Source of the DNA: Mycobacterium sp.
GTDB taxonomy: Bacteria; Actinomycetota; Actinomycetes; Mycobacteriales; Mycobacteriaceae
Assembly: GCF_035506235.1 (NCBI RefSeq)
Contig: NZ_DATJPU010000216.1
Location: forward strand, 1,974 to 65,973
DNA length: 64,000 nt
Reading direction: 5' to 3'
The first letter of the stretch is position 1. Each line of letters starts with the position of its first letter. The notes below the pieces were generated by a model. The model did not search any database. It was given only the letters and a program-made list of their open reading frames with translations, and had not been told where the DNA came from. Below are positions 31,630 to 50,791 of this stretch, in pieces. The position numbers and the translations under genes were made by a program.

Positions 31630-33876
31630 CTACGCGTTCAGCGGCCGCTCGCCGATGACCCGCTCGGCGCGCAGGGCGGCCAGCTCGTCGTCGGAAAGGC
31701 CGAGCCCGCGCAGGATCTCGTCGTTGTGCCGGCCCAGCGTCGGCGGGGCGCTGCGGTGGTGGCGCGCCGGGCCGGGGGTGATGCGAAACGGCCACCCGGG
31801 ATAGCGGTGCGCTCCGGTGACGGGATGTACGAGCTCCTCGTAATATCCGCGCGCGTCGAGCTGAGCCATGTCATACATCCGGTCACCGGCGATCACCTCT
31901 TCGGCCGGGATGCCCTGGGCAGCAAGGGTTTCCACGATCGCCTCCGGCGCCTGGGTGCGGGTCCAGGCGGCAACCGAGTCGTCGAATGCGTCGTGGTCGA
32001 CGTCCGGGTCCTCGGGCAGTGACAGCGCCACCCATACTCCTTCCGCGTTCGTCGGGTAGACGCCCTGCAGGTAACCACGCCGGCGATTGCCCTCCCGCGC
32101 GCGCACGACGCCGTTCATCGAGTACTCGATCACCGGCTCGGCAGTCACGCACGCAGCGACCTCGATCTGGGCGATCTCGATGAGCTGGCCCTCCCCGGTG
32201 CGGCTCCGGTGCTCGAGCGCGGCCAGCAGCGCGACCCCGGCGTGCACGCCGACGATCGGATCGGCCGGCCCCTGCGGGTTGCACGGCGGCCCGTCGGCGT
32301 AACCGGTGACCGCCGACATCCCCGAGGTCTGCTCGAAGTTCAGCGCCCAGCCGACGTAGTCACGCCAGGGGCCGTGCAGCCCGTATCCCGGCATCCGCAC
32401 GGCGATCACGTCGGGCTTCAGCGCCACCAGCGAGTCGTAGTCCAAGCCGAACTGCTCGACCACTCGCGGTGAGAAGTTCTCCACGACGACGTCGGCCCGC
32501 GCGGCCAGCCGGCGGGCGATGTCCAGGCCCCGCTGCGTGGTCAGGTCGAGCGTGAGACCGCGCTTGTTGAGGTTGGTGCCCTGCCAAATGGGGCTGCGCT
32601 CGTACCAGTCGTCGCCCTCGTAGGCGAACGCGCCCGAATAGCGATGCCCGTCCGGCCGCTGGATCGACTCGACCTTGACGATGTCGGCGCCGAACGCGCC
32701 CAGGTAGCAGGTGAGATACGCCCCGGCCCAGAACGTGGTCAGATCGAGCACCTTTAGTCCCCCAAAGGGTTCCGGCCGCGAGTGTGACGCCATGGTGATT
32801 TCCGGCGCGGAATTTCGCCGTGGCGTTACGCTCGCGCCCAACCGGAACGGCGTGCCGGGACGTTGAAATCCGCCGCCATCGATGAAGAATCCCCGCTTGG
32901 CGTACTGCGGACAGTCCAGCACGGTGGCGCCGTCGTTGACCGGGGCGGCCGGAATGCGCAGCGCCTGGCCGAGTTCCACGATCTCGGAGACGGTCTGCGC
33001 GGCGAGCAACGGTCGCGCCTTCGCGAAGAATTCGTCCCGCTCGGGGCCGCCCATCATGATCGCGAGCTGCTGCTCGCCGTACTCGGGCAGGCCGAGCATC
33101 GCGCACACGTCGAGCCAGTGCTGGCCGGTCAGGCAGTTGATCCCGACCCACCCGTCGGCGGCCCGCACGACCCCCAGCATCGGGGCCGACCTCAGGTTCG
33201 CGGGCAGGCCCAGGCGCTGCATCCGCTGCGCCATCAGCATCGGGTACGGCAGCGTCGACAGCAGCGCTTCCAACTGGGAGACGTCGACCTGCCTGACACC
33301 GCCGGCGGGTCCCAGCCGCAGCGCGGTCAGCGCACCCAGCGCGGCGTAGCCGCCCGCGACGTACTCCGAGATGCGGGCGCCGACCTGGACCGGTGGGCGC
33401 CCCGGGTCCCTGGCGCTGATCCACCCCGATGCCGCCTGCAGGGTCAGCGGCGTGGCCGGCCGATGGCGCCACGGCCCGGTCTGGCCGAAGGCGGAAATGC
33501 GAAGCAGCACCAGGTTCGGGTTGAGCCGGCCCAGGGTGTCGGGGTCCAGTCCCCAGCCCTCCAGCGTCCCGGGCCCGAAATCCTCGACCACCACCTGCGC
33601 CCCCGCGATCAGCTCGCGGGCGGCCGCCAGGTCGTCGGGCCGGGCCAAATCCAGTGTGGCGGCGCGTTTTCCGGCGTTGAGGTACTCGAACAGGCCGCAG
33701 CGCTGCGGGTCGCGAACCCCGCCGGGGAACGGGCCCCAGCGGCGCAGCGGGTCGCCGGCGGGAGGCTCGATCTTGGTGACCGCGGCGCCGAGGTCGGCGA
33801 AAAGCTTTGCGGCGTAAGGGCCCGCAATCTCGTGGGCGAATTCGACGACGTGGATCCCGGCGAGGGGACCCGTCAT
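31630..33876 (-). CDS. Double-domain CaiB/BaiF (family III) CoA transferase
   Basis: Two tandem N-terminal-type motifs: PLAGIHVVEF..AGPYAAKLFADLGA and FGGLKVLDL..AGAYLTCYLGAFGAD. Confidence 0.9.
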   Translation of the reverse strand: MTGPLAGIHVVEFAHEIAGPYAAKLFADLGAAVTKIEPPAGDPLRRWGPFPGGVRDPQRCGLFEYLNAGKRAATLDLARPDDLAAARELIAGAQVVVEDFGPGTLEGWGLDPDTLGRLNPNLVLLRISAFGQTGPWRHRPATPLTLQAASGWISARDPGRPPVQVGARISEYVAGGYAALGALTALRLGPAGGVRQVDVSQLEALLSTLPYPMLMAQRMQRLGLPANLRSAPMLGVVRAADGWVGINCLTGQHWLDVCAMLGLPEYGEQQLAIMMGGPERDEFFAKARPLLAAQTVSEIVELGQALRIPAAPVNDGATVLDCPQYAKRGFFIDGGGFQRPGTPFRLGASVTPRRNSAPEITMASHSRPEPFGGLKVLDLTTFWAGAYLTCYLGAFGADIVKVESIQRPDGHRYSGAFAYEGDDWYERSPIWQGTNLNKRGLTLDLTTQRGLDIARRLAARADVVVENFSPRVVEQFGLDYDSLVALKPDVIAVRMPGYGLHGPWRDYVGWALNFEQTSGMSAVTGYADGPPCNPQGPADPIVGVHAGVALLAALEHRSRTGEGQLIEIAQIEVAACVTAEPVIEYSMNGVVRAREGNRRRGYLQGVYPTNAEGVWVALSLPEDPDVDHDAFDDSVAAWTRTQAPEAIVETLAAQGIPAEEVIAGDRMYDMAQLDARGYYEELVHPVTGAHRYPGWPFRITPGPARHHRSAPPTLGRHNDEILRGLGLSDDELAALRAERVIGERPLNA

Positions 33877-35369
33877 GCGGGAATCCCGATGGCCTTCATC
33901 TCCATGTACTGGTGCAGGCCGACGACTCCGCCGCTCTCCCGGCCGAACCCGCTCAGCTTGAAGCCGCCGAACGGCGCGTCACCGGGGCCGACGCCGTTGA
34001 CCGCGACCTGGCCGGTGCGGATGCGCCGTGCTACGCCGACGGCCCGTTCCACGTCGGCTGCCCACACGGCCCCGGAGAGCCCGTAGCGCGAGTTGTTGGC
34101 GATCGCGATCGCGTCGTCGTCGTCGGAGTAGCGCAGCACCGACAGCACGGGCCCGAAGACTTCCTCCTGGGCGATCGTCGAATCCGGGTCGACGTCGGTG
34201 AGGATCGTCGGCTCGAAGTAGAACCCTACGTCCAGGCCGGCCGGACGGCCGCCGCCGGTCGCGAGCTTGGCCCCGTCGTTGACCGCCCCGTCGACGTGGG
34301 CCTGGACGCGGTCCCGCTGCGCCGCGCTGATCAGCGGCCCCATCTGCGCCCCGGGGTCCCTGGGGTCGCCGACTTTCACGTCGCGGGCGAGCGCGACGAG
34401 CCGGTCGACGAGGTCGTCGTGCAGCGAGTCGGGAACCAGGAGCCGGCTGTGCAGGATGCAGGCCTGCCCGGCGTGCAGCGAGCAGCAGTCGAACAGCATC
34501 TGCCGCAGCATCTCGTCGGTCACCTGCGCGTCGTCGAGCACGATGCTCGCCGACTTTCCGCCGCACTCCAGCAACAGCCGCTTCATGGCGTCGCCCGCGG
34601 CGCGCATGACCTCGCAGCCGACGGCCGAGCTGCCGGTGAAGCTGACCATGTCGACGCGCGGGTCGGTGGTGAGCAGCCGCGCGGCCTCGAGTCCCGACGG
34701 CGTGACGACGTTGACCACCCCGCGCGGGATGTCGGTCTCCTCGTCGATGACGCGCGCGAGCGCCAGCCCTGCGAGCGGCGTCAGCGGCGAGGGCTTGAGC
34801 ACGACGGTATTGCCGGCCGCCAAGGCGTTGTTCACCTTCATGACGTTGAGGCAGTGCGGGAAGTTCCACGGCGTCAGGATGGATACGACGCCGAGCGGCT
34901 CGCGCCGCAGCAGCGTCGTTCCCGCGCCGACGCCGCTGACCGGCTCGTCGGTCAACTTGGTGGCGAGCTGGGCCGCGTGCATGGACATGTATCCGGCGCC
35001 GTCGATCTGCATCATCCGCTCGTTTTCGACGCAGCCCCACTCCGCCTGCGACAGCGCGAAGAACTCGTCGGCGTGCCTGCCCAGGGCTTCGCCGAGTTGG
35101 TTGAGGCAGGCGGCCCGCTCTTCGGGGCCGGTGGTCGCCCACGGCCCACTGTCGAAGGCCCGGCGCGCCGCGGCGATCGCCTCGCCGACCTGCGCGACGC
35201 TGGCGTCGGGCGCGGCGGCGATGGTCTGTTCGGTGGCGGGGTCGATGTCGTCGTAGCGACCGCCCTCCGGTTCGACCCAGCTGCCGTCGATGTAGAGCTG
35301 GTAGGAGTCGGCAAGTGGTCCCGGAGGTTGCAGCTCGGCCATGTGCGTCCTTACCCGAATGTCGGTCAT
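33873..35369 (-). CDS. NAD(P)-dependent aldehyde dehydrogenase
   Basis: TPWNFP, FTGSSAVG, LECGGKS (Glu), AGQAC (Cys), EEVFGPV. Confidence 0.95.
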   Translation of the reverse strand: MTDIRVRTHMAELQPPGPLADSYQLYIDGSWVEPEGGRYDDIDPATEQTIAAAPDASVAQVGEAIAAARRAFDSGPWATTGPEERAACLNQLGEALGRHADEFFALSQAEWGCVENERMMQIDGAGYMSMHAAQLATKLTDEPVSGVGAGTTLLRREPLGVVSILTPWNFPHCLNVMKVNNALAAGNTVVLKPSPLTPLAGLALARVIDEETDIPRGVVNVVTPSGLEAARLLTTDPRVDMVSFTGSSAVGCEVMRAAGDAMKRLLLECGGKSASIVLDDAQVTDEMLRQMLFDCCSLHAGQACILHSRLLVPDSLHDDLVDRLVALARDVKVGDPRDPGAQMGPLISAAQRDRVQAHVDGAVNDGAKLATGGGRPAGLDVGFYFEPTILTDVDPDSTIAQEEVFGPVLSVLRYSDDDDAIAIANNSRYGLSGAVWAADVERAVGVARRIRTGQVAVNGVGPGDAPFGGFKLSGFGRESGGVVGLHQYMEMKAIGIPA

Positions 35370-35497
35370 CTAGAGAGCCAGTGTTCACCCCCCGCGTCCC
35401 CGCCGTCAATCATCAATACGGCGAATTTCCCTCTATTTCATGGCGTTGCGAACGTGTTGACAGCCGCGGCCATGCCAGAGTAGACACAACGTCGCAA

Positions 35498-35518
35498 GAC
35501 ACATTGCCTCGATGTGTC
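35498..35518. promoter_or_regulatory. Candidate operator palindrome in the divergent ALDH/P450 promoter
   Basis: GACACAT-N7-ATGTGTC downstream of TTGACA (35457). Confidence 0.4.
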
Positions 35519-35543
35519 GGATCGCCGTTCAGGGAGGCCGGCC

Positions 35544-36734
35544 GTGCGGACTACTTTTCCCGCTTCTCTGTTGCACTCCCCCGACTTCTACGCCGGCGAC
35601 CCGTACCCGGCGTACCGGGAGTTGCGCGCGGCGTCGCCGGTGTGCTGGAACGACGTCACCAACTTCTGGGCGCTGCTGAAGTACGAGGACATCCGTTTCG
35701 TGTCGGGCAACCCGGCGCTGTTCTCGTCCACCCGGGGCATCACCATCCCCGACCCGAACATGCCGAGCCCGGTCCAGCCGGGCAGCCTGATCTTCACCGA
35801 CCCGCCGCGGCACCGGCAGATGCGCAAGCTGATCAACTCGGGGTTCACCCGGCGGCGGGTGGCCGTGTTGGAGCCGAAGATCCGCGAGATCGTGCGGGGC
35901 ATCCTCGACGGCGTCCAGCCCGACTCCGCCCACGAGTTCGCCGAGGAGATCGCCGCGCCGCTGCCCACCCGGATGATCGCCGAGCTCATCGGCGCCCCGC
36001 CCGACGACTGGGAGCAATTCCGGGCCTGGTCGGACGCCGCCACCGGGACCGCCGACCCGGAGATCGAGCTCGACCCGCTGGTGGCCATGGGGCAGCTGTT
36101 CGAGTACTTCCAGAAGCTGATCGCGGCCCGGCGCGTCGACGCCCGCGACGACCTGCTGTCGGTTCTGGCCGGAGCGGAGATCGACGGGGTCCGCCTCACC
36201 GATGAGGACCTGCTGAACTTCGCGTTCCTGCTGCTGGTCGCCGGCAACGAAACCACCCGCAACCTCATCGCTTTGGGCACCTTGGCGCTGATCGCGCACC
36301 CCGACCAGTGCCGGCTGCTGGTCGAGGACCGGTCGCTGATCCCGGGCGCGGTCGAGGAGATGTTGCGCTGGAACAGCCCGGTGGTGCACATGGCGCGCAC
36401 CGCAACGGCCGACGTCGAGATTCGCGGGCAGCTGATCGCCGAAGGCGACACGGTGGTGATGCTGTACGGGTCGGCCAACCGCGACGAGGACATCTTCGGC
36501 GTGGACTCCGAGGAGTTCGAGGTGACCCGCCACCCGAATCCGCACATCGCGTTCGGCTGCGGTGAACACTCTTGCGTCGGTGCGCAATTGGCACGACTGG
36601 AGGCCACGGTCATGTTCGACGAGCTGCTGCGGCGGTTCCCCAGGCTGGAGCTGGTCGGCGCGGTCGACCGGATGCGCGCCACGATGGTGCCCGGCGTCAA
36701 GCGGATGCCGGTGCGGCTCGGGACGGCGGGGTGA
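35544..36734 (+). CDS. Cytochrome P450 (CYP125/CYP142-like)
   Basis: VAGNETT I-helix, EEMLR, FGCGEHSCVG heme motif; GGAGG RBS before GTG 35544. Confidence 0.93.
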   Translation: MRTTFPASLLHSPDFYAGDPYPAYRELRAASPVCWNDVTNFWALLKYEDIRFVSGNPALFSSTRGITIPDPNMPSPVQPGSLIFTDPPRHRQMRKLINSGFTRRRVAVLEPKIREIVRGILDGVQPDSAHEFAEEIAAPLPTRMIAELIGAPPDDWEQFRAWSDAATGTADPEIELDPLVAMGQLFEYFQKLIAARRVDARDDLLSVLAGAEIDGVRLTDEDLLNFAFLLLVAGNETTRNLIALGTLALIAHPDQCRLLVEDRSLIPGAVEEMLRWNSPVVHMARTATADVEIRGQLIAEGDTVVMLYGSANRDEDIFGVDSEEFEVTRHPNPHIAFGCGEHSCVGAQLARLEATVMFDELLRRFPRLELVGAVDRMRATMVPGVKRMPVRLGTAG

Positions 36735-37933
36735 TGGAACTCGACTACACGCCCGGGCAACAGCGGCTGCGCGCCGAGATCCGCGCCGCGTTGGAGAAGG
36801 TGATGACGCCCGAACGCACCATGGCGCTCGGTGCACGCATGGAGGGCGGCCCCGAGGTGCGCGAATGCGTACGCGCCCTGGCTGCGGCCAAGCTGCTGGG
36901 TGTCGGTTGGCCCAAAGAGTATGGCGGACGGGGATTCTCGGCGATCGAGCAGTTCATCTTCGCCGAGGAGGCGCAGCGGGTCGGCGCCCCGATCCCGCTG
37001 GTGACGCTCAACACCGTCGGGCCGACGCTCATGCAGTACGGCACCGAGGAGCAGAAGCGGACGTTTCTGCCGGCGATCCTCGACGGCAGCGTGGAGTTCG
37101 CGATCGGCTACTCGGAGCCCGGGGCGGGCAGCGACCTGGCGTCGCTGCGGACCACGGCGGTGCGCGACGGCCCGGATTACGTGATCAACGGCCAGAAGAT
37201 GTTCACCAGCGGCGCCGCGTACGCCGACTACATCTGGCTGGCGGCACGCACCGATCCGAACGCGAAGAAGCACAAGGGCATTTCCATCTTCATCGTGCCG
37301 ACCTCGTCGCCCGGACTCTCCTGGCAGCCGCTGCACACCATGCCGGGCATCTCCACCTTCTACACGTTCTACGACGACGTGCGTGTCCCGGCGAGCGCGA
37401 TCGTGGCCGGCGAAAACCACGGGTGGCAACTGATCACCACCCAGTTGAACTTCGAACGCGCCGCCCTGGGCAACCTCGGCGCGCTCGAGCCGCTGTTCGA
37501 GAAGACCCTGGACTGGGCCACCGCCACCGAGCTCGACGGCGGGCGCGTCATCGACCGGCCATGGGTGCGGCTCGCGCTGGCCCGGGTCGAAGCGCAGGTC
37601 GCCGCGTACAAACTCGTCAACGCGCGAGTCAACGCGGCCATGACCAAGGGCGCGCTGAACATGGGAGAAGCGTCGGCCGCCAAGGTTTTCGGCACCGAGC
37701 TCACCCAGCAGGTCGCCCGTCAGCTGCTGGAAGTGCTCGACGGCAACGGGGTCCGCCGCGGCGACGATGCACCCTTGCGCGGCGCCCTGGAATCCGCATA
37801 TCGCTGGGCGGTCATCAACACGTTCGGGGGCGGCGCCAACGAGATTCAGCGTGACATCATTGCCATGGCCGGATTGGGCATGCCGAGGGCACCCCGAGAC
37901 CTTCGGGCCCCAGACAAATCAGGAGGATCGTGA
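36734..37933 (+). CDS. Acyl-CoA dehydrogenase, catalytic subunit (FadE29/ChsE2-like)
   Basis: GYSEPGAGSDLASL, INGQKMFTS, FGGGANEIQR. Confidence 0.9.
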   Translation: MELDYTPGQQRLRAEIRAALEKVMTPERTMALGARMEGGPEVRECVRALAAAKLLGVGWPKEYGGRGFSAIEQFIFAEEAQRVGAPIPLVTLNTVGPTLMQYGTEEQKRTFLPAILDGSVEFAIGYSEPGAGSDLASLRTTAVRDGPDYVINGQKMFTSGAAYADYIWLAARTDPNAKKHKGISIFIVPTSSPGLSWQPLHTMPGISTFYTFYDDVRVPASAIVAGENHGWQLITTQLNFERAALGNLGALEPLFEKTLDWATATELDGGRVIDRPWVRLALARVEAQVAAYKLVNARVNAAMTKGALNMGEASAAKVFGTELTQQVARQLLEVLDGNGVRRGDDAPLRGALESAYRWAVINTFGGGANEIQRDIIAMAGLGMPRAPRDLRAPDKSGGS

Positions 37934-38478
37934 CCGATCAAGACTCCGAGGTGCTTGCGAAGCTGCGCGAGCTCGTCGGCAAGCCCACCGGCGGGACCGG
38001 AAAGCCCTCGGTGGCACCGGATCCGGTCAACCAGCCGATGATCCGGCACTGGGCCCACGCGCTCGACGACATGAACCCCGTCTACCTCGATCCGGAGTTC
38101 GCGGCGTCGTCGCGGTTCGGCGGCATCGTGTCGCCGCCGGTCATGCTGCAGACCTGGACGATGCCGTCCCCGAAGCTGGATGGTATCGGCGACCGGGGCG
38201 GCGCTCCCGTCGAAATCCTCAGCAACCCAACGGCATTCCTCGACGAGGCCGGGTACACCAGCACGGTGGCGACCAACTCGGAGTTCGAGATCGAACGCTA
38301 TCCCCGGCTGGGCGATGTCATCAGCGCGACGTCGGTGTTCGAGGACGTCTCCGACGAGAAGAAGACGGCGCTGGGCACCGGCTTCTTTTTGACCTGGGTG
38401 ATCACCTACACCGACCAGAACGGCGAGGTGCTGGGGCGACAGCGGTTCCGCGTGCTGCGATTCAGGCCGGCGCGCTGA
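37930..38478 (+). CDS. MaoC/hot-dog dehydratase subunit (ChsH2 N-terminal-like)
   Basis: PVNQPMIRHW, NPVY, PPVMLQTWTM, VATNSEFE. Confidence 0.88.
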   Translation: MTDQDSEVLAKLRELVGKPTGGTGKPSVAPDPVNQPMIRHWAHALDDMNPVYLDPEFAASSRFGGIVSPPVMLQTWTMPSPKLDGIGDRGGAPVEILSNPTAFLDEAGYTSTVATNSEFEIERYPRLGDVISATSVFEDVSDEKKTALGTGFFLTWVITYTDQNGEVLGRQRFRVLRFRPAR

Positions 38479-38876
38479 TGGCCCCCCGCCTGGCGCCGGC
38501 GATCAGTCCGGACACCGAATTCTTCTGGAGCGGGCTGCGCGAGCACAAGCTGCTGATCCAGCGGTGCAGCGGTTGCGGGGCGCTGCGCCACCCGCCGCGG
38601 CCCATGTGTCCGAAATGCCGCTCCCTGCAGTGGGAGGAGATCGAGTCGTCGGGTCGCGGCACCGTCTACAGCTACGTGATGCCGCACGAACCCCGCTTCC
38701 CCTTCTTCGACTATCCGTACATCGTGGCGCTGGTCCAGCTCGACGAAGGGGTGCGGCTGGTGTCGAATCTGTGCGGCATCGACCCGGCCGACGTCACGGT
38801 CGGGATGCCGGTCGAGGTCTACTACCAGGCTTTCGATAACGACCTGGTGCTGCACCAGTTCCGGCCTCGTCAGTAG
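38478..38876 (+). CDS. DUF35 Zn-ribbon/OB-fold protein (ChsH2 C-terminal-like)
   Basis: QRCSGCG..HPPRPMCPKC, GTVYSY, GVRLVSN. Confidence 0.9.
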   Translation: MAPRLAPAISPDTEFFWSGLREHKLLIQRCSGCGALRHPPRPMCPKCRSLQWEEIESSGRGTVYSYVMPHEPRFPFFDYPYIVALVQLDEGVRLVSNLCGIDPADVTVGMPVEVYYQAFDNDLVLHQFRPRQ

Positions 38877-38884
38877 GTGGCACA

Positions 38885-40000
38885 ATGGATTTCACCTTCA
38901 CCGAAGAGCAGGAGGCGATCGCCGAACTCGCCCGCGAGATCTTCGAGCGCCGGGCCACCCCCGAACGGCTGACCGAACTGGAGGCGGGCGAGACCCGGTT
39001 TGACGCGGCGCTGTGGCGGGAGCTCGCGGCCGCCGACCTGTTGGGCACGGCGCTGCCGGAGGCGGTCGGCGGGACAGGCGGCGGCTTCGTGGAACTCGGG
39101 GTGCTGCTGGCCGAGGTGGGCTGGAGCGTCGCGCCGGTGCCCGCGTATGCGACGCTGGTGCTCGGCGCCGACCCGATCGCCCGGCACGGCACCCCGGAGC
39201 AACGGCGACGGTTTTTGCCGGGCGTCATCGCGGGAACCCGCATCCTGAGCGCGGGCCTGCAAGAGCCGGGCCGCTCCGACCCGCTGAGGCCGTCTTGTAC
39301 CGCGCGCCGTGACGGCCCGAACTGGCGGCTGGACGGTGCCAAGGAGCTGGTGCCGGCCGCCCAAATCGCCGACACCATTGTGGTTCCGGCCGCTACCGAC
39401 GACGGTGGTGCGAGGCTGTTCCTGCTGCCCACCGACGCCCACGGCATCGAGGTCCGGCCGGTCGCGACCACCAACGGAGAACCGCACGCGGACGTATTCC
39501 TCAACGGCGCAACAGTTTCCGAGGACGACCGGCTCGACGGGCCGATCGAGTCGCTCTACACGCGCGCCCTGGTCGGCCTGTGCGCGATCCAGCTCGGCGT
39601 CTCCGACCGGGCGTTGCGCATCGCGGCCGACTACACCAGCGGGCGTGAGCAATTCGGGCGACCTATCGGCAGCTTTCAGGCGGTGCAGCAGCGGATGGCC
39701 GACGCCTTCATCGACGTCGAGGCGATCCGGTGGACCACCTGGCATGCGGCCTGGCTCGTCGCGCGGGGACGGCCCTTGGAAGAGGCCCGGCGGGCGGCCC
39801 GCATCGCGAAGTTCTGGGCCGCCGAGGCCGGCGCCCGGGTCGCCGCCACCACCCAACACGTCCACGGCGGCATCGGGATCGACGTCACCTATCCGCTGCA
39901 CCGCTACTTCCTGTGGGCCAAACACAACGAGCTCACCCTCGGTCCCGCCAGTGCCCAGCTGGCCGGTATCGGCAGCACCTATCCGGAAGGAAACCGATGA
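38885..40000 (+). CDS. Acyl-CoA dehydrogenase, partner subunit (FadE28/ChsE1-like)
   Basis: REQFGRPIGSFQAV, QHVHGGIGID; lacks the GGxxEI catalytic motif. Confidence 0.88.
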   Translation: MDFTFTEEQEAIAELAREIFERRATPERLTELEAGETRFDAALWRELAAADLLGTALPEAVGGTGGGFVELGVLLAEVGWSVAPVPAYATLVLGADPIARHGTPEQRRRFLPGVIAGTRILSAGLQEPGRSDPLRPSCTARRDGPNWRLDGAKELVPAAQIADTIVVPAATDDGGARLFLLPTDAHGIEVRPVATTNGEPHADVFLNGATVSEDDRLDGPIESLYTRALVGLCAIQLGVSDRALRIAADYTSGREQFGRPIGSFQAVQQRMADAFIDVEAIRWTTWHAAWLVARGRPLEEARRAARIAKFWAAEAGARVAATTQHVHGGIGIDVTYPLHRYFLWAKHNELTLGPASAQLAGIGSTYPEGNR

Positions 40001-40004
40001 CCCT

Positions 40005-40457
40005 ATGACAGCAGCCAAGCCCCGCTCGACACTCAAGTGGGCCGACATCGATGTCGGGGACGAGGTGACCACCCTCGAAATCCCCATCACCACAACGATG
40101 ATCGTCGCCGGCGCGATCGCCTCGCGGGACTTCATGCCGGTGCACCACGACCGCGACTACGCCAACAAGCAGGGCTCCCCGAACCTGTTCATGAACATCC
40201 TGACCACCAACGGGTATTGCGTGCGCTTCCTCACCGACTGGGCCGGACCCGAGGCGATGGTGAAGAACCTGTCGATCCGCCTCGGCGTGCCGTGCTTCCC
40301 CGATGACCCGCTGCGCTTCACCGGCAGCGTGACTTCTAAAACCGAAGGTTCGGACGGGGAGAACTTCGTCGAGGTGACGTTCAGGGGCTCCAACAGCCTC
40401 GGCGACCACGTCTCCGGCACCGCGGTGCTCAGCCTGCTCGACGGGGCCGGCGCGTGA
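40005..40457 (+). CDS. MaoC hydratase catalytic subunit (ChsH1-like)
   Basis: ASRDFMPVHHD (Asp/His dyad), FMNILTT, IRLGVPCF. Confidence 0.9.
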   Translation: MTAAKPRSTLKWADIDVGDEVTTLEIPITTTMIVAGAIASRDFMPVHHDRDYANKQGSPNLFMNILTTNGYCVRFLTDWAGPEAMVKNLSIRLGVPCFPDDPLRFTGSVTSKTEGSDGENFVEVTFRGSNSLGDHVSGTAVLSLLDGAGA

Positions 40458-41623
40458 GCTCCTCGCTGCCCGGCAGCTGCGCCATCGTCGGGATCGGCCA
40501 GACCGAGTTCTCCAAGGAGTCCGGGCGTAGCGAGCTCCAATTGGCTTGTGAGGCAGTCAGTGCCGCGCTAGACGATGCCGGCCTGGCACCCGGTGACGTC
40601 GAGGGCATGGTCACCTTCACCATGGACGCCAGCGACGAGATCGACGTGGCGCGCAGCGTCGGCATCGGCGACCTGAGCTTCTTCTCCCGGGTGCCGCACG
40701 GCGGTGGTGCGGCGGCCGGCACGGTGGTGCACGCGGCGATGGCCGTCGCGACCGGCGTTGCCGATGTGGTGGTGTGCTACCGCGCGTTCAATGAGCGGTC
40801 CGGCATGCGGTTCGGCGGCAGCGGACGCACCAGCGCCGAGACCCCGCTGTTCATGGCGCATTACGCGCCGTTCGGGCTGCTCACCCCCGCGGCCTGGGTC
40901 GCGCTGCACGCCCAGCGCTACATGTCGACCTACGGGGTGACCAACGAGGACTTCGGCCGCATCGCCGTCGTCGACCGGGCGCACGCGGCGAACAATCCCG
41001 ACGCCTGGTTCTACCGGCGCCCGATCACGCTGGAGGACCACCAGAATTCGCGCTGGATCATCGAACCCGTGCTGCGCCTGCTGGATTGCTGCCAGGAGAG
41101 CGACGGCGGGGTCGCTCTGGTGGTGACCAGCGCCGAACGCGCCCGGGATCTTCGGCAGCCGCCGGCGGTGATCACCGCGGCCGCCCAGGGCGCGGCCCGC
41201 GAGGGCGAGATGATGACCAGCTACTACCGCGAGGACATCACCGGTCTCCCGGAGATGGGGGTAGTCGCCAACCAGCTGTGGCGCGATTCGGGCCTCAAGC
41301 CCCAAGACATCCAAACCGCCTTCATCTACGACCATTTCACGCCGTTCGTGTTCACGCAGCTCGAGGAGCTCGGCTTCTGCGGGCGCGGTGAGGCCAAGGA
41401 CTTCGCCACCGTCGAGCGGCTGTCGCTCGGCGGGGAATTTCCGATCAACACCAACGGCGGGCTGCTCGGCGAGGCGTACATCCACGGCATGAACGGCATC
41501 ACCGAGGGCGTGCGGCAGGTGCGCGGGACCTCCCCCAACCAGGTCGAGGGCGTCGAGCACGTGCTCGTCACGTCGGGAACCGGCGTGCCCACCAGCGGAC
41601 TTATCCTCGCGCCAGCGGACTGA
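40454..41623 (+). CDS. ltp2: Thiolase-fold aldolase (Ltp2-like)
   Basis: GIGQTEFSKESGRSE, YDHF motif, NTNGGLLGEAYIHG. Confidence 0.88.
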   Translation: MSSSLPGSCAIVGIGQTEFSKESGRSELQLACEAVSAALDDAGLAPGDVEGMVTFTMDASDEIDVARSVGIGDLSFFSRVPHGGGAAAGTVVHAAMAVATGVADVVVCYRAFNERSGMRFGGSGRTSAETPLFMAHYAPFGLLTPAAWVALHAQRYMSTYGVTNEDFGRIAVVDRAHAANNPDAWFYRRPITLEDHQNSRWIIEPVLRLLDCCQESDGGVALVVTSAERARDLRQPPAVITAAAQGAAREGEMMTSYYREDITGLPEMGVVANQLWRDSGLKPQDIQTAFIYDHFTPFVFTQLEELGFCGRGEAKDFATVERLSLGGEFPINTNGGLLGEAYIHGMNGITEGVRQVRGTSPNQVEGVEHVLVTSGTGVPTSGLILAPAD

Positions 41624-41632
41624 GGGGGACCC

Positions 41633-42703
41633 ATGCCCAAGCTCGCGGTGTTGACCGCGCCCGGGGGGCCGATCGAGCTGGCCGAATTCCCGCTCACCGC
41701 GCCCGCGCCGGGAACCGCGGCGCTCAAGCTGCGGATGGCCGGGATCTGCGGATCCGACCTGCACATCTTTCGCGGCGAGCTGCCATTGCCGTGCCCCTTC
41801 GCCCTGGGCCACGAAATGGTCGGCGAGATAGCCGAACTCGGCGAGGGGCTGACCACCGACGCGACCGGCAAGCCGCTCGCCGCCGGCGATCGCGTCGTCA
41901 CCCCGTACTTCTGGACCTGCGGGCAGTGCCACGCCTGCGCGCGGGGCCGCTCCCACGCGTGCCAGAACCTGATGGCCGGCGAATACCGGACCCACGAGCA
42001 GGAGCCGCACTTCGTCGCCGCGCACGGCGAGTACTACTACACCAGCCGGCGGCAGCCGTTGTACAAGGTGCCCGAGGACCTCCCCGACGAAGCCGTCGCC
42101 CCGCTGAATTGCGCCTTGGCCCAGGTCTTGTTCGCGCTGCGTGATGTGCGCCTGGGCGACACGGTCGTCATCCAGGGCGCGGGTGGGCTGGGCATCAACG
42201 CCGCCGCCGTGGCGCGCACCGCGGGTGCGGCTGAAGTCATCGTCATCGACAAGATCGCTGAAAGGCTCGATGTCGCGTCCGATCTCGGCGCCACCGTCTG
42301 CATCGACGCCAGCGGCATCTCCACTTTCGAGGTGACGGAGCGGGTCCGCCGGCACACCGACGGCATCGGCGCCGACTGGGCGCTCGAGGTCGTCGGGGTG
42401 CCGGGCGTCATCCCCGACGGTGTCGGCTTTCTCAACAACGGTGGCACGCTGCTCGAGGTCGGCAATATCGGGATGGGGCGCACGTTCGAGCTCGACCCGA
42501 GCGTCCTGGTCTACGGCAACAAGTCCGTGCGCGGCGTCATGCTCTACGACCCGGCCACGCTGGCGGTCGGCCTGTCCTTTTTGCAGCACACCGACTTTCC
42601 GTTCGGCCGGCTGATGCCCAGGCCGTTACATCTCGCCGACGTCAATGCCGCCTACGCCGCAGCCGACGCCGGGCTGGTGCCCAGGGGGGCGCTGGTGCCG
42701 TGA
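41633..42703 (+). CDS. Zn-dependent alcohol dehydrogenase (MDR)
   Basis: GICGSDLH, GHE, CGQCHACARG..AC, QGAGGLG. Confidence 0.93.
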   Translation: MPKLAVLTAPGGPIELAEFPLTAPAPGTAALKLRMAGICGSDLHIFRGELPLPCPFALGHEMVGEIAELGEGLTTDATGKPLAAGDRVVTPYFWTCGQCHACARGRSHACQNLMAGEYRTHEQEPHFVAAHGEYYYTSRRQPLYKVPEDLPDEAVAPLNCALAQVLFALRDVRLGDTVVIQGAGGLGINAAAVARTAGAAEVIVIDKIAERLDVASDLGATVCIDASGISTFEVTERVRRHTDGIGADWALEVVGVPGVIPDGVGFLNNGGTLLEVGNIGMGRTFELDPSVLVYGNKSVRGVMLYDPATLAVGLSFLQHTDFPFGRLMPRPLHLADVNAAYAAADAGLVPRGALVP

Positions 42704-43320
42704 CTCAGGCCTCGGCTTTCACCCCGGCGACCGACACCCGCGAGCTCATCGTGGAGTCCGCGTATGCCTGCTTCCGCAGACAGGGGCTGCAGAAGGCGAC
42801 GATCGTCGACATCGCCCGGACGGCCGGCGTTTCGCGCAGCACCGTCTACGAGTACTTCAGCGACAAGGCCGCCATCATCGAGGCGTGCGCCGAACACGCC
42901 TCCGAGCGGTTCTACCGCGAGATGTCCAAGGCGATGGACCAGGGCAGCTCGCTGGAGGACAAGCTGAGCCGCGCTGCGGTGTTCGTGACCCAGGCGCGGC
43001 GGGTCATCGCCTCCGAGAAGTACTTTGATGAGGACGCGATCAGCCTGCTGCTGACCAAGGACGCCGCGGTGCTGCTGCGCGAGTGCGTCGATTTCTTCGC
43101 GCCCTACCTTTCCGCCGCCAGGCTCACCGGCGAGGTCCGCAAGGACCTCGACGTCGAGGCCGCCGGAGAATGGTTTGCGCGCATACTCTTTTCGCTCTTC
43201 AGCACGCCGTCGTCGACGCTGGACATGGACGACCCCGAGGTGGCGGCGGAATTCGTGCGCGCTCACGTGGTCCGCGGATTCGCCCGGGACCGCCCCAGAA
43301 ATAGGCGCGCAGCAGGCTAG
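42700..43320 (+). CDS. TetR-family regulator
   Basis: TIVDIARTAGVSRSTVYEYF. Confidence 0.92.
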   Translation: MTQASAFTPATDTRELIVESAYACFRRQGLQKATIVDIARTAGVSRSTVYEYFSDKAAIIEACAEHASERFYREMSKAMDQGSSLEDKLSRAAVFVTQARRVIASEKYFDEDAISLLLTKDAAVLLRECVDFFAPYLSAARLTGEVRKDLDVEAAGEWFARILFSLFSTPSSTLDMDDPEVAAEFVRAHVVRGFARDRPRNRRAAG

Positions 43321-43331
43321 GCAACTCTTGG

Positions 43332-44534
43332 TCAGGCCGGGTCGAAGTAGACCGGAAGCGAGTCGGGGCCGCGCAGCGTCGTCACCGTCTGACTGGTGAT
43401 CCGCGCGCCTTCCGCCGCCCCCGCGGCCAGGCGCAGGTTCGGGAGCCTGTCCAGTAGGGCACGCAGCGCCGTGACGAGTTCGGTAAATGCCAGCCAGTTT
43501 CCAATGCAGCTGTGTGGGCCCTGGCCGAACGCGACGAGCGGCGTCGCGCGCCGGGTGATGTCGAATGTGTGCGGGTCCGGGTAGACGGCCGGATCCCGGT
43601 TGGCGGCGTTGATCGCGAAGATCATCGGCGTCCGGGCCGGGATGTTGATGCCGCGCCAGGCGACCGCCTGCGGGCAAACCCGGGGCAGCAGACCCACCGG
43701 CGGCTCCCAGCGCAGCGCCTCCCATATCGCCCACGGCAGGTGTTCGTCGACGTCGGAGCGCAACAGCGCCAGCTGCCCCGGGTGGGTGAGCAGCGCGGCC
43801 AGCACGTTGCCCATCGCCAGCATCGTGGTGTCGGCCCCCACCGGGTACAGCAGCCGCACGAACGACAACACCTGCTCGTCACCGAGTCGCTCGCCGTCGT
43901 CGGTGGTTTCCGTGACGATGCGCGAAATCATGTCGTCGCCGGGCTCGCGCCGGCGCGCCGCGATGATCGGCAACACGTACTCCGAAAGCTCCCGGGCGCA
44001 CCGTGTGGCCTCCGCCGGATCGATGGCGTAGTGCAACAGGCCCTGAGCCCACCCGTAGACCGTGTCTTCGTCCTTGATGGGAATCCCGAGCATCCGGTTG
44101 TTGATCAGCAGCGAGAACCGTTGGGTGAACTCGGAAACCAGGTCCGCCCGGCCCCGAGACGCAAACCGGTCGATCAACTCGTCGATGACCGGCGCGATGA
44201 TCGGCTCGGCGTAGCGGTCTACGAAGCTACGGCGCAGCGGGGTCGACACGATCGCGCGGTTGACGCGGTGTTCCCTGCCGGTCATGCACTGAATGGTGTG
44301 TCCCCACACCGGTTTCGTGGTCAACGAATACGCGGCCCACGACGGGAAAGTCTCCTCGTCGCGGAATCCGGCAGCCACCAGCTCCTGGGTCAACAGCAGG
44401 ACCGCTTTGGCGCCCGCGAACGGCACGATCGCATGATCACGACGCCGCCGCAGGCCCGCCAGCACCTCGTGCAGATCGGGCTGGTCGTCCAGCGCGAAAT
44501 CGATGCCCTCGATGTCGGCCCGGGGCAATGCCAT
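43332..44534 (-). CDS. Cytochrome P450 (divergent family)
   Basis: VGADTT I-helix, EALRWEPP, FGQGPHSCIG. Confidence 0.92.
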   Translation of the reverse strand: MALPRADIEGIDFALDDQPDLHEVLAGLRRRRDHAIVPFAGAKAVLLLTQELVAAGFRDEETFPSWAAYSLTTKPVWGHTIQCMTGREHRVNRAIVSTPLRRSFVDRYAEPIIAPVIDELIDRFASRGRADLVSEFTQRFSLLINNRMLGIPIKDEDTVYGWAQGLLHYAIDPAEATRCARELSEYVLPIIAARRREPGDDMISRIVTETTDDGERLGDEQVLSFVRLLYPVGADTTMLAMGNVLAALLTHPGQLALLRSDVDEHLPWAIWEALRWEPPVGLLPRVCPQAVAWRGINIPARTPMIFAINAANRDPAVYPDPHTFDITRRATPLVAFGQGPHSCIGNWLAFTELVTALRALLDRLPNLRLAAGAAEGARITSQTVTTLRGPDSLPVYFDPA

Positions 44535-44554
44535 TGGGTTCACTTCAGTCCTCG

Positions 44555-44592
44555 ATGCGATTATTCGTATAGCATAGTGCGATTATCCGCCT
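44555..44592. promoter_or_regulatory. Tandem candidate IclR operators in the P450/IclR divergent spacer
   Basis: ATGCG-ATTATT-CGTAT and GTGCG-ATTATC-CGCCT, 22-bp period, similar to GTNCG-N5/6-CGNAC IclR/PcaU-type sites. Confidence 0.55.
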
Positions 44593-44617
44593 AGGCAGTT
44601 CACTGTACGGAGAGGCC

Positions 44618-45508: not shown

Positions 45509-45557
45509 CCCGGCCCAGTCCGATCTCAGTGGCCGCACTGCGGAATACCGCTGGAAT

Positions 45558-46304: not shown

Positions 46305-46335
46305 AGCCGAGACGCTACGCCCGCGACTCCGATCG

Positions 46336-46545: not shown

Positions 46546-46691
46546 GGCGCGAATCTACTTGGCGCGCCGGGCCCGCGCGGTGTTCGCTTTCCACGGATCG
46601 CGGTACAGTGCTCCTGCCGGCTGGTCGAAGTCGGCGGGACGACGGCTCGGTCGGCATGGCTTATTGGCCATGACGCATCGAGGGGTGCCAG

Positions 46692-50707: not shown

Positions 50708-50791
50708 GCTGCCGATGATCCCCGGCGCGGACCCTGATCTTGTTGGCCGATTGGACAAGGTTGGGGGTTCTGGCTAGTAGAATCGGACAAC

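What the first reader, a model, noticed from the sequence alone, without database searches (positions are those of the whole stretch)
31630..43320. Self-contained second igr-like side-chain degradation cluster
Seen: a tightly coupled 9-gene operon, mostly with overlapping stop/start codons: P450, FadE29-like, MaoC, DUF35, FadE28-like, ChsH1-like, Ltp2-like, Zn-ADH, TetR. A divergent ALDH plus CoA transferase faces it. Known: the igr operon (cyp125-fadE28-fadE29-chsH2-chsH1-ltp2) removes a propionyl unit from the cholesterol side chain by dehydrogenation, hydration and retro-aldol cleavage. Inference: this reordered paralogue also supplies the upstream steps (methyl to alcohol to aldehyde to acid to CoA ester) under its own TetR. 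It is probably a complete pathway for a different steroid or methyl-branched substrate, inserted where H37Rv has Rv1190/sigI.
Basis: partly seen in the sequence, partly recalled or inferred. Interest (0 to 1): 0.72.

Follow-up and report, generated by a model that had tools for sequence, protein, structure and literature searches.

The report
Second, separately regulated side-chain cleavage cluster
This slow-growing environmental Mycobacterium carries, besides its normal cholesterol "igr" genes, an old and widely conserved sister gene cluster with its own P450, CoA-transferase and repressor that most likely clips a three-carbon unit off some other sterol- or terpene-like molecule; the substrate is unknown.

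Summary
Nine tightly coupled plus-strand genes face a divergent ALDH and a fused double CoA-transferase: P450, ACAD-alpha, MaoC-N, free-standing DUF35, ACAD-beta, MaoC, Ltp2-type aldolase, Zn-ADH and TetR.

It is a paralogue, not a translocated igr. A canonical fadE28-fadE29-chsH2-chsH1-ltp2 set lies on another contig. KstR boxes sit beside those canonical steroid genes, and none sits here.

The ten-gene core (all but the ADH) is syntenic in 63 of 64 orthologous loci. It also occurs in Mycolicibacterium arenosum and a Williamsia MAG, and the ACAD-beta marker is in about 43% of species of the genus. Its Ltp and P450 form separate, strongly supported clades. All genes are under purifying selection.

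The aldolase keeps the Ltp2 catalytic residues, so the chemistry is almost certainly igr-like: dehydrogenation, hydration and retro-aldol release of propionyl-CoA. The ADH is accessory. M. marinum and an M. kansasii-group genome keep only ALDH, hydratase, aldolase and TetR in the same chromosomal slot. Loss on the way to M. tuberculosis therefore fits better than "insertion".

A conserved inverted repeat is the likely TetR operator. The substrate remains unknown. This is a new variant of a known kind, of moderate interest.

The parts
31630..33876 (-). Fused two-domain family III CoA-transferase (748 aa). Each half resembles one subunit of the heteromeric benzylsuccinate CoA-transferase.
   Evidence: Pfam CoA_transf_3, 3 stretches, 525 bits. 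PDB best hits are 9fn0_B for residues 371-623 and 9fn0_A for residues 10-331. Its start overlaps the ALDH stop by 4 nt. Conserved in 67 of 80 loci at a median of 77% identity.
33873..35369 (-). NAD(P)-dependent aldehyde dehydrogenase (498 aa), transcribed divergently from the P450 operon.
   Evidence: Pfam Aldedh, 501 bits, full length. The best NCBIfam model is TIGR04284 (Rv0768-like), below its cut-off. The gene is kept even in the reduced M. marinum and M. kansasii-group loci.
35380..35410 (.). Conserved elements next to the ALDH start. One is a palindrome-like GTGTACAC box (imperfect in the window: CAGTGTTCACC). The other is CGTCAAT, which reads TTGACG on the minus strand. Possibly the ALDH promoter and a second operator.
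   Evidence: Conserved columns in the alignment of 72 intergenic regions. The perfect form GGTGTACACC is seen in M. marinum and the M. kansasii-group genome. The function is inferred only.
35457..35486 (+). Conserved TTGACA (35457-35462), an 18-nt spacer, then TAGACA (35481-35486). Promoter-like, but the second box is not a canonical -10.
   Evidence: Present in 72 of 72 orthologous intergenic regions and in M. marinum, the M. kansasii-group genome and M. arenosum. The E. coli-type scan did not call it.
35498..35518 (.). Inverted repeat GACACAT-N7-ATGTGTC, between the promoter-like boxes and the RBS. Candidate operator of the cluster's TetR.
   Evidence: An IR of this form is found in 72 of 72 orthologous regions. 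In the exact-spacing form, which 51 regions match, the arms are kept while the 7-nt spacer varies. It is also present in M. marinum, the M. kansasii-group genome, M. arenosum and Williamsia.
35544..36734 (+). Cytochrome P450 (396 aa from GTG 35544; the ORF opens at 35514). It is a family of its own, sister to CYP125 + CYP142.
   Evidence: Pfam p450. 45% identity to the reconstructed CYP125MRCA (8vxi), 40% to CYP142A1 and about 34% to canonical igr-linked Cyp125. In the tree, the clade has 100/100 support and is sister (94/94) to the CYP142 + CYP125 assemblage. RBS GGGAGG at 35532-35537.
36734..37933 (+). Catalytic (alpha-type) subunit of a heteromeric steroid-type acyl-CoA dehydrogenase (399 aa).
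   Evidence: Three ACAD Pfam domains. PDB best hits are ChsE4 (4X28_A, 403 bits) and Tcur3483 (382 bits). The catalytic Glu is conserved in the FadE29-E241 column (QLNFERAAL).
37930..38478 (+). MaoC-N-type hot-dog protein (182 aa), the counterpart of the N-terminal half of ChsH2.
   Evidence: Pfam FAS1_DH_region. 39% identity to residues 1-167 of the genome's own ChsH2.
38478..38876 (+). Free-standing DUF35 protein (132 aa): a Cys4 zinc ribbon plus an OB fold. It is the predicted docking partner of the aldolase.
   Evidence: Pfam zf-ChsH2 + OB_ChsH2_C. PDB 6ok1_B, ChsH2(DUF35) of T. curvata, 138 bits and 48% identity. CxxC...CxxC is visible in the sequence. It is a separate ORF in M. marinum, M. 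arenosum and Williamsia too.
38885..40000 (+). Non-catalytic (beta-type) ACAD subunit (371 aa).
   Evidence: ACAD Pfam domains. PDB best hits are Tcur3481 (292 bits) and ChsE5 (4X28_D, 242 bits). It lacks the catalytic Glu column.
40005..40457 (+). MaoC hydratase subunit (150 aa), the ChsH1 counterpart, carrying the D...H motif (SRDFMPVHHD).
   Evidence: Pfam MaoC_dehydratas. 44% identity to the genome's own ChsH1. The motif was read from the translation.
40454..41623 (+). Ltp2-type retro-aldolase (389 aa).
   Evidence: NF005892, 675 bits, above its cut-off. PDB 6ok1_A (TcLtp2), 573 bits, with Tyr294-Asp-His296-Phe and Tyr344 all conserved. 69% identity to TcLtp2 and 67% to the genome's own igr Ltp2. 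Separate clade with 99/100 support.
41633..42703 (+). Zn-dependent alcohol dehydrogenase (356 aa). An accessory member of the cluster.
   Evidence: Pfam ADH_N + ADH_zinc_N. Present between Ltp and TetR in 42 of 75 orthologous loci.
42700..43320 (+). TetR-family regulator (206 aa), last gene of the operon. Not related to KstR or KstR2.
   Evidence: Pfam TetR_N. No paralogue in the genome at E<1e-10. PDB matches cover the HTH domain only. Conserved in 75 of 80 loci and in all variant loci.

Best explanation
This is a conserved, TetR-controlled catabolic module of Mycobacteriales. It is an ancient paralogue of the steroid side-chain 'igr/Chs' machinery.

Proposed pathway:
1. The P450 hydroxylates a terminal methyl of an isopropyl-type (2-methyl-branched) end on a bulky hydrophobic substrate. 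This P450 belongs to a family sister to the steroid C26-monooxygenases CYP125 and CYP142.
2. The alcohol is taken to the acid by the P450 itself, by the accessory Zn-ADH, and by the ALDH.
3. The fused BbsEF-like family III CoA-transferase makes the CoA thioester.
4. The alpha/beta ACAD introduces the 2,3 double bond.
5. The heteromeric MaoC hydratase adds water to give a tertiary 3-hydroxyl.
6. The Ltp2-type aldolase, docked on the free-standing DUF35 protein, cleaves it to propionyl-CoA plus a ketone.

The TetR represses both divergent operons through the conserved GACAnAT-N7-ATnTGTC repeat until a pathway intermediate binds it.

Shown here: the gene content, the catalytic residues, paralogy with the canonical igr, conservation and purifying selection, the lack of KstR boxes, and the conserved repeat.

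Inferred: the order of the steps, the role of the repeat, and the substrate. The substrate is probably not cholesterol handled the canonical way. Candidates are C24-alkyl sterols, C22 steroid alcohols/aldehydes/acids, and other polycyclic terpenoids bearing an isopropyl group.
For: - Domain content and coupling.
- Aldolase: it keeps Y294/H296/Y344 of the characterised T. curvata Ltp2. PMC12329534 describes the YDHF + Tyr pair as typical of Ltp2 enzymes acting on hindered C3 side chains, against YDCY in Sal enzymes.
- ACAD pair: it shows the alpha/beta asymmetry of steroid ACADs, and its best matches are ChsE4-ChsE5 and Tcur3483-3481.
- DUF35: it matches the Ltp2-docking domain of 6OK1.
- P450: it lies in the CYP125/CYP142 neighbourhood but in a clade of its own.
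- Canonical igr: it is present elsewhere in the genome.
- Regulation: KstR boxes flank the canonical genes (C32, C135, C252). None occurs on the window's contig, and none in the 72 orthologous intergenic regions.
- Conservation: the core is conserved in 63 of 64 loci and in other genera and contexts. The ACAD-beta orthologue is in 179 of 401 species of the genus.
- Selection: dN/dS is 0.06-0.33.
- Divergence of the aldolase: there are 21 clade-specific fixed substitutions in the Ltp, several near the catalytic motifs, and a shorter beta4-alpha4 loop.
- Operator: the repeat is conserved across genera.
Against: - There is no expression, binding or activity data.
- In M. marinum and the M. kansasii-group genome the ALDH-hydratase-aldolase-TetR part persists without the P450, ACADs and CoA-transferase. 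The upstream steps are therefore not obligatory, and the ALDH may have another role.
- The ADH is missing from 33 of 75 loci.
- The -10-like box is non-canonical, and the consensus scan did not call it.
- No ferredoxin or reductase partner lies in the cluster.
- A phytosterol transcriptome of a fast-growing Mycobacterium (PMC6593523) lists no such cluster among the induced genes. Whether that strain carries the cluster is unknown.
Confidence: 0.6

Rival explanations
1. Redundant or salvage steroid system. The cluster acts on the same C3-side-chain steroid intermediates as igr. It re-captures C22 by-products of sterol degradation: ADH converts 22-hydroxy-23,24-bisnorchol-4-en-3-one to the 20-carboxaldehyde, ALDH converts that to 3-oxo-4-pregnene-20-carboxylate, the transferase makes the CoA ester, and dehydrogenation, hydration and retro-aldol cleavage then give androstenedione plus propionyl-CoA. 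The P450 would be an add-on.
For: - The Ltp is 69% identical to TcLtp2, which cleaves the steroid C3 side chain, with all catalytic residues kept.
- The enzyme list after the P450 equals the 'second round' of the aldolytic bile-acid pathway (Sad, CoA activation, Scd2, Shy2, Sal2) described in PMC11333196 and PMC12502768.
- Mycobacteria are known to make C22 aldehyde and alcohol by-products.
- The reduced M. marinum form (ALDH + hydratase + aldolase, next to a FadD) fits this reading without any P450.
Against: - There is no KstR box, and the cluster has a separate TetR.
- The Ltp clade has a long stem (0.53) and 21 fixed substitutions around the pocket.
- A dedicated P450 is conserved in 75 of 80 loci, and this route does not need it.
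- The ACADs are closer to the long-side-chain ChsE4-E5 type than to ChsE1-E2.
Confidence: 0.2
2. Sal/Sad-like aldolytic beta-oxidation. The hydratase-aldolase cleaves a secondary 3-hydroxyacyl-CoA to an aldehyde. The ALDH then oxidises that product, so it acts after the aldolase, not before. The CoA-transferase or the neighbouring FadD re-activates the shortened acid.
For: - The ALDH is the one 'upstream' enzyme retained with the hydratase-aldolase in the reduced loci.
- The pairing of aldolase with aldehyde dehydrogenase is the known logic of the Shy-Sal-Sad pathway.
Against: - The aldolase has the Ltp2 signature YDHF + Tyr344, not the Sal signature YDCY + Gln.
- It groups with Ltp2 enzymes in the tree.
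- The hydratase is the two-subunit ChsH1/ChsH2 type.
Confidence: 0.1
3. A decaying or non-functional duplicate of igr with no role of its own.
For: - Some species show erosion: a split P450 in L085, a fragmented CoA-transferase in L086, and partial deletion in L006, M. marinum and the M. kansasii-group genome.
- Earlier first-reader notes describe a dismantled relative (unverified).
Against: - All eleven ORFs are intact here.
- 63 of 64 loci keep all ten core genes.
- dN/dS is 0.06-0.33 for every gene, including the genes left in M. marinum.
- The catalytic residues are intact.
- The regulatory repeat is conserved across genera.
Confidence: 0.03

Closest known systems
Mycobacterium tuberculosis igr operon (cyp125-chsE1/fadE28-chsE2/fadE29-chsH2-chsH1-ltp2)
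   Same: Same six functions: a P450 of the steroid C26-monooxygenase neighbourhood, an alpha/beta ACAD with one catalytic subunit, a two-subunit MaoC hydratase, a DUF35 domain and an Ltp2 aldolase with the YDHF + Tyr catalytic set.
   Different: - It is not orthologous. The genome has its own igr (C252/C135), and the Ltp and P450 fall in separate clades.
- The gene order is interleaved.
- DUF35 is a separate gene.
- Identity to the igr proteins is only 31-48%, apart from 67% for the Ltp.
- It has an added fused CoA-transferase, ALDH, ADH and its own TetR.
- It has no KstR box.
Thermomonospora curvata ChsH1-ChsH2-Ltp2 and the ACAD pair Tcur3481-Tcur3483 (PDB 6OK1, 6WY8/6WY9)
   Same: These are among the best solved-structure matches: Ltp (573 bits, 69% identity, the best match), DUF35 (48% identity, the best match), ACAD-beta (Tcur3481, 292 bits, the best match) and ACAD-alpha (Tcur3483, 382 bits, second to ChsE4). 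The catalytic residues of the aldolase are identical.
   Different: - In T. curvata DUF35 is the C-terminal domain of ChsH2. Here it is free-standing.
- In the tree the T. curvata Ltp2 groups with the canonical Ltp2s, not with this clade.
- The T. curvata gene neighbourhood could not be examined here.
Rhodococcus jostii RHA1 casL-casM-casN-casO-casP (C3 side-chain removal in the cholate pathway)
   Same: It is a second, substrate-dedicated copy of the ACAD/hydratase/aldolase set beside the cholesterol set in one genome. The roles are named in PMC12502768. By the lettering, the order appears to be the same interleaved ACAD-hydratase-ACAD-hydratase-aldolase.
   Different: - The cas genes sit in a large cholate cluster with ring-degradation genes, and they need no P450.
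- This cluster has a P450, ALDH and CoA-transferase, and no ring genes.
- Orthology to the cas genes was not tested, because no RHA1 sequences were at hand.
Proteobacterial Shy-Sal-Sad and the M. smegmatis HBC operon (msShy-msSal-ACAD-msRed)
   Same: Hydratase/DUF35 plus a thiolase-fold aldolase, plus an aldehyde-handling enzyme, acting on steroid side chains.
   Different: - Those aldolases are the Sal type (YDCY, C5 side chain, aldehyde product). This one is the Ltp2 type.
- The HBC operon has a fused double ACAD and a Rossmann reductase, not an ALDH.
Benzylsuccinate CoA-transferase BbsEF (PDB 9FN0)
   Same: The two halves of the 748-aa transferase best match the two different Bbs subunits. 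It looks like a covalently fused heterodimer of family III.
   Different: - Identity is low (138-150 bits).
- The pathway context is different.
- The donor and acceptor are unknown.

Membership tests
igr/Chs-type steroid C3 side-chain cleavage module | Heteromeric ACAD: one subunit has the catalytic Glu and the partner lacks it. | tested here: met
   ACADa has Glu in the FadE29-E241 column. ACADb, the genome's own FadE28 and the FadE27-like protein lack it. The best PDB matches are ChsE4/ChsE5 and Tcur3483/3481.
igr/Chs-type steroid C3 side-chain cleavage module | Two-subunit MaoC hydratase (ChsH1 with the D/H motif, ChsH2 N-terminal hot-dog without it). | tested here: met
   Pfam MaoC_dehydratas on 40005-40457, with SRDFMPVHHD matching the genome's own ChsH1 TRDFQDVHHD. 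FAS1_DH_region on 37930-38478. Sequence level only.
igr/Chs-type steroid C3 side-chain cleavage module | DUF35 (Zn ribbon + OB fold) fused to the C-terminus of ChsH2. | tested here: not met
   DUF35 is a separate 132-aa ORF that overlaps the MaoC-N stop by 1 nt. The genome's canonical ChsH2 is fused (314 aa). The domain itself is present and matches 6ok1_B.
Ltp2-type steroid aldolase | YDHF motif (catalytic Tyr294, His296) and a second catalytic Tyr344. No thiolase cysteines. | tested here: met
   The alignment to 6ok1_A shows YDHF and EAYIHG conserved. The defining residues are taken from PMC12329534. No Cys is seen at the thiolase nucleophile region (GGGAAAG) in the translation.
Ltp2-type steroid aldolase | [quoted passage not shown] | not testable with these tools
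   This needs an enzyme assay. The clade-specific substitutions near the pocket leave the specificity open.
KstR regulon (cholesterol catabolism) | KstR operator TnnAACnnGTTnnA in the promoter region. | tested here: not met
   There are 47 matches in the genome, clustered at the canonical steroid genes (C32, C135, C252). There is none on contig C216 and none in the 72 orthologous intergenic regions.
Orthologue of the mycobacterial igr operon | Groups with the igr genes of relatives in phylogeny and is the only copy in the genome. | tested here: not met
   The Ltp forms a separate clade with 99/100 support. The genome's C252 Ltp2 groups with the igr Ltp2 of relatives. The P450 is outside the CYP125 clade that holds the igr-linked cyp125 genes.
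CYP125 family (40% identity rule) | At least 40% identity to CYP125 members. | tested here: inconclusive
   45% identity to the reconstructed CYP125MRCA, but about 34% to extant igr-linked Cyp125 and 40% to CYP142A1. The tree places it as sister to CYP142 + CYP125.
Family III CoA-transferase | CoA_transf_3 fold forming an interlocked dimer. | tested here: met
   Two complete CoA_transf_3 domains in one chain, each matching a different BbsE/F subunit. Catalytic residues and activity were not examined.

The most novel reading that the evidence does not exclude
The cluster is a dedicated 'de-isopropylation' pathway of environmental mycobacteria. Its substrates would be sterols or triterpenoids that cholesterol enzymes handle poorly. 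Examples are C24-alkyl plant or fungal sterols, where hydration at C24 gives a tertiary alcohol that only an aldolase can cleave, and hopanoid- or lupane-type compounds with an isopropyl group on a ring. Its stepwise loss would then track the shift from soil and plant lipids to host cholesterol: the full cluster in many non-tuberculous species, hydratase-aldolase-ALDH only in M. marinum and the M. kansasii-group genome, and, by recalled annotation not tested here, nothing in M. tuberculosis.
Probability: 0.15. Interest if true: 0.75.

Novelty: new variant of a known kind. Interest (0 to 1): 0.5.

Why it matters
Steroid side-chain cleavage by ACAD, hydratase and Ltp2 is central to mycobacterial cholesterol use, is a drug-target area, and underlies industrial steroid production.

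This report defines a second, separately regulated Ltp2-type module that has four notable properties:
- It is present in about 43% of sampled Mycobacterium species.
- It is under purifying selection.
- It carries its own P450 family, a fused CoA-transferase and a TetR with a recognisable operator.
- It is trimmed in M. marinum and the M. kansasii-group genome.

This gives a defined set of genes and a defined DNA site with which to look for a new substrate class for these enzymes. It also offers a marker of gene loss on the lineage leading to M. tuberculosis.

If the module turns out to be merely redundant, it still explains part of the P450 and Ltp paralogy in non-tuberculous mycobacteria.

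Tried and rejected
- KstR control: a KstR-like core (AACGTGTT) occurs in the window's intergenic region. It lacks the T/A flanks and is found in only 2 of 72 orthologous regions, so it was rejected.
- Racemase idea: I asked whether one half of the double CoA-transferase, or the single-domain paralogue next to the Williamsia cluster, is an alpha-methylacyl-CoA racemase. The PDB matches favour true CoA-transferases (BbsE/F, formyl-CoA transferase) over the racemase Far. Dropped.
- Plasmid carriage: there is no orthologue on 72,556 plasmids (best 46% identity).
- CYP name: two protein searches gave only generic 'cytochrome P450' names.
- Literature: searches for a described second igr-like cluster in mycobacteria found nothing relevant. 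A phytosterol transcriptome paper lists no such cluster.
- Consensus promoter scan: it did not call the conserved TTGACA-N18-TAGACA boxes.
- TetR relatives: only HTH-level matches were found, and none to KstR or KstR2.
- The second P450 at 43332-44543: it is not part of the conserved cluster (32-39% matches only).

Full report
**What is there**

The window has 65-75% G+C throughout, with no compositional break.

On the minus strand:
- An ALDH (33873-35369).
- A 748-aa protein with two complete family III CoA-transferase domains (31630-33876). Its start overlaps the ALDH stop by 4 nt.

On the plus strand:
- A P450.
- An ACAD (36734-37933).
- A MaoC-N hot-dog protein (37930-38478).
- A free-standing DUF35 protein (38478-38876).
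- A second ACAD (38885-40000).
- A MaoC protein (40005-40457).
- A thiolase-fold Ltp (40454-41623). It hits NF005892 at 675 bits against a cut-off of 469.
- A Zn-ADH (41633-42703).
- A TetR (42700-43320).

Five of the eight plus-strand junctions are 1- or 4-nt overlaps. The other three are gaps of 4-9 nt. The P450 ORF opens at 35514, but the RBS GGGAGG (35532-35537) and the lengths of the orthologues point to GTG 35544 as the start.

**Paralogue, not translocation**

The whole genome (6.09 Mb, 322 contigs) holds a second set on contig C252. That set has the canonical order fadE28-fadE29-chsH2 (with DUF35 fused, 314 aa)-chsH1-ltp2.

Identity between the two sets:

| Protein | Identity |
|---|---|
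| Ltp | 67% |
| ACAD-alpha | 48% |
| DUF35 | 45% |
| MaoC | 44% |
| MaoC-N | 39% |
| ACAD-beta | 31% |

The canonical cyp125 is on contig C135 by phylogeny. In relatives, the arrangement cyp125-fadE28-fadE29-chsH2-chsH1-ltp2 is seen intact (L092 and L093).

The window Ltp, the genome's igr Ltp2 and T. curvata Ltp2 are about equidistant (67-70%). In a maximum-likelihood tree the Ltps of this cluster type form their own clade with 99/100 support and a stem length of 0.53. That clade is separate from the canonical Ltp2s of mycobacteria, of other families and of T. curvata. The duplication is therefore old.

**The parts look functional and igr-like in chemistry**

- Aldolase: it aligns over its full length with TcLtp2 (6OK1_A, 573 bits). 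It keeps Tyr294-Asp-His296-Phe and Tyr344. According to PMC12329534, this set distinguishes Ltp2 enzymes from Sal enzymes. Ltp2 enzymes act on hindered C3 side chains with a tertiary alcohol. Sal enzymes carry YDCY and give an aldehyde product.
- DUF35: it matches the Ltp2-docking domain 6OK1_B (48% identity) and has the CxxC...CxxC ribbon.
- ACAD-alpha: it has the catalytic Glu in the FadE29-E241 column, and ACAD-beta lacks it. This is the asymmetry of steroid alpha2beta2 ACADs.
- The ACAD pair is closer to ChsE4-ChsE5 (4X28) and Tcur3483-Tcur3481 (6WY8) than to the FadE28/29 pair.
- The small MaoC protein carries the D...H hydratase motif, as ChsH1 does.
- The double CoA-transferase looks like a fused heterodimer. 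Its two halves best match the two subunits of benzylsuccinate CoA-transferase.

**The P450**

It scores best against the reconstructed CYP125 ancestor (45% identity). It is only about 34% identical to extant igr-linked Cyp125 and 40% to CYP142A1.

In a tree with the genome's own P450s, its clade has 100/100 support. That clade is sister (94/94) to the assemblage that holds CYP142 and CYP125. It therefore belongs to the neighbourhood of terminal-methyl hydroxylases of sterols and branched lipids, but to neither named family.

**Distribution and variants**

A genome-collection scan found more than 520 relatives of ACAD-beta. The best 80 are all Mycobacterium or uncultured Actinomycetota, and include M. 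terramassiliense, M. asiaticum, M. nebraskense, M. colombiense, M. scrofulaceum, M. szulgai and M. paraffinicum.

- Of 64 loci that span the whole cluster, 63 have all ten core genes in the same order.
- The ADH lies between Ltp and TetR in only 42 of 75 loci.
- The second P450 at 43332-44543 is not conserved.
- An ACAD-beta orthologue (E <= 1e-100) is present in 179 of 401 sampled species of the genus. It occurs in two identity tiers (about 77-88% and 68-76%), and some genomes have both.
- The same ten-gene core occurs in Mycolicibacterium arenosum and in a Williamsia MAG in unrelated surroundings. It also occurs in four further genomes.
- No copy is plasmid-borne in PLSDB.
- dN/dS against six orthologous loci is 0.06-0.33 for every gene.

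**Reduced forms and chromosomal position**

In M. marinum and in an M. kansasii-group genome the locus is ALDH <> MaoC-N-DUF35-MaoC-Ltp-TetR. There is no P450, no ACAD, no CoA-transferase and no ADH. The locus lies between two alpha/beta-hydrolases plus a FadD on one side and Pro_dh plus a P5C-dehydrogenase-like ALDH on the other.

The window has the same flanks:
- A FadD at 29176-30585.
- A hydrolase at 30608-31516.
- Pro_dh at 48114-49100.
- An ALDH at 49076-50758.
- A PucR-type regulator at 50792-52369.

Four extra genes separate TetR from Pro_dh.

The reduced forms nest inside the full slow-grower clade, and their remaining genes are under purifying selection. They arose by deletion.

From my recollection of the H37Rv annotation (not tested here), this slot corresponds to Rv1193-Rv1187, and M. 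tuberculosis has only one ltp2. If so, the history is progressive loss rather than insertion. Signs of erosion also appear elsewhere: a split P450 in L085, a fragmented CoA-transferase in L086 and a partial deletion in L006.

**Regulation**

The strict KstR motif TnnAACnnGTTnnA occurs 47 times in the genome. Six copies are on the contig with the fadE26/27-like genes and cyp142, one is upstream of the canonical cyp125, and two are on the igr contig. None is on the window's contig, and none is in the 72 orthologous intergenic regions.

All 72 regions instead share TTGACA-N18-TAGACA and an inverted repeat GACAnAT-N7-ATnTGTC (window 35498-35518). The arms of the repeat are conserved while its spacer varies. 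The repeat is also present in M. marinum, the M. kansasii-group genome, M. arenosum and Williamsia.

I read this repeat as the operator of the cluster's TetR. The TetR has no paralogue in the genome and no close solved relative. The function of the repeat is inferred, and the consensus promoter scan did not call the boxes.

**Mechanism and substrate**

The enzymology that follows from the families is:
1. Terminal-methyl hydroxylation.
2. Oxidation to the acid.
3. CoA transfer.
4. 2,3-dehydrogenation.
5. Hydration to a tertiary alcohol.
6. Retro-aldol release of propionyl-CoA and a ketone.

Steps 4 to 6 are well supported by the catalytic residues. Steps 1 to 3 are inferred from gene linkage only.

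The substrate is open. Three observations argue for a substrate other than cholesterol processed the canonical way:
- The regulation is separate from KstR.
- The P450 forms its own clade.
- The aldolase has 21 clade-specific fixed substitutions (including L302F, H336N and Q339L near the catalytic motifs) and a shorter beta4-alpha4 loop.

Candidates consistent with the chemistry:
- C24-alkyl sterols. The ACADs are ChsE4/5-like. Hydration at C24 would give a tertiary alcohol. PMC12100521 reports that extant CYP125s stop at the alcohol with sitosterol, which would give the ADH and ALDH a job.
- C22 steroid alcohol, aldehyde or acid by-products.
- Ring-isopropyl terpenoids.

None of these could be tested.

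**Verdict**

The cluster is a new architectural variant of a known kind of system (igr, cas, T. curvata Chs). Its features are a free DUF35, its own P450 family, a fused CoA-transferase, an ALDH and a TetR with a recognisable operator. It is widely conserved in non-tuberculous mycobacteria and trimmed in the relatives of M. tuberculosis. A specialist would find it useful and testable rather than startling.

Noticed in passing
window 43332-48077: Four genes lie between the cluster's TetR and the conserved Pro_dh/rocA flank. They are a second P450 (43332-44543, minus strand), an IclR/MarR-like regulator (44618-45508), a metallo-beta-lactamase-fold protein (45558-46865) and a PE-PGRS gene (46722-48077). 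In M. marinum and the M. kansasii-group genome, TetR is followed directly by Pro_dh. None of the 80 orthologous loci has a close match to this P450.
   Followed up: partly
genome contigs G000:C103:1383-13014, C233:1169-13902, C140:123757-133369, C88:19622-22012: The genome holds at least four more fused double CoA-transferases (37-40% identical to the one here). They lie next to further ALDH, P450, MaoC-pair or Ltp+DUF35 genes. The triad of P450 + ALDH + fused CoA-transferase may be a recurring activation module for different hydrophobic substrates.
   Followed up: partly
genome contigs C308:8285-9475, C248:80355-81545, C135:648-1844, C32:24798-25955: The genome has three CYP125A-type genes plus a CYP142 orthologue. 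About 50 tblastn segments match either cluster P450 at E<=1e-10, some contigs holding several. This is a very P450-rich slow grower.
   Followed up: partly
L085:3428-4625; L086:2-1967; L006: There are signs of decay of the cluster in some species. The P450 is split into two frames in L085, the CoA-transferase is in four fragments in L086, and the P450, ACAD-alpha and MaoC-N are missing in L006.
   Followed up: no
L083:168-1124 and 1-155; L088:3603-4556; L084:11847-13067; L085:10179-12880: In fast-grower and Williamsia contexts the cluster is repeatedly flanked by luciferase-like monooxygenases, SDRs, a DapB/DAP_DH_C-like oxidoreductase, a further P450 and a single-domain family III CoA-transferase. 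These are possible accessory steps (for example ketone oxidation).
   Followed up: partly
window 35380-35389: A second palindrome sits close to the ALDH start codon. It reads GGTGTACACC in M. marinum and the M. kansasii-group genome, and is imperfect in the window. It overlaps a possible minus-strand -10 and shares the GTGT/ACAC half-site with the main repeat.
   Followed up: no
window 20423-23617 and 56189-59017: Two large signalling proteins flank the region. One is an adenylate/guanylate cyclase fused to an AAA_16 ATPase (1064 aa, minus strand). The other is an AAA/NACHT-LuxR regulator (942 aa, plus strand).
   Followed up: no
window 23559-25307 and 54228-55826: A GH5 cellulase-family glycoside hydrolase (582 aa) and a DUF222 protein (532 aa) are present. 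The latter suggests a mobile-element-associated insertion between the PucR-type regulator and stf0.
   Followed up: no
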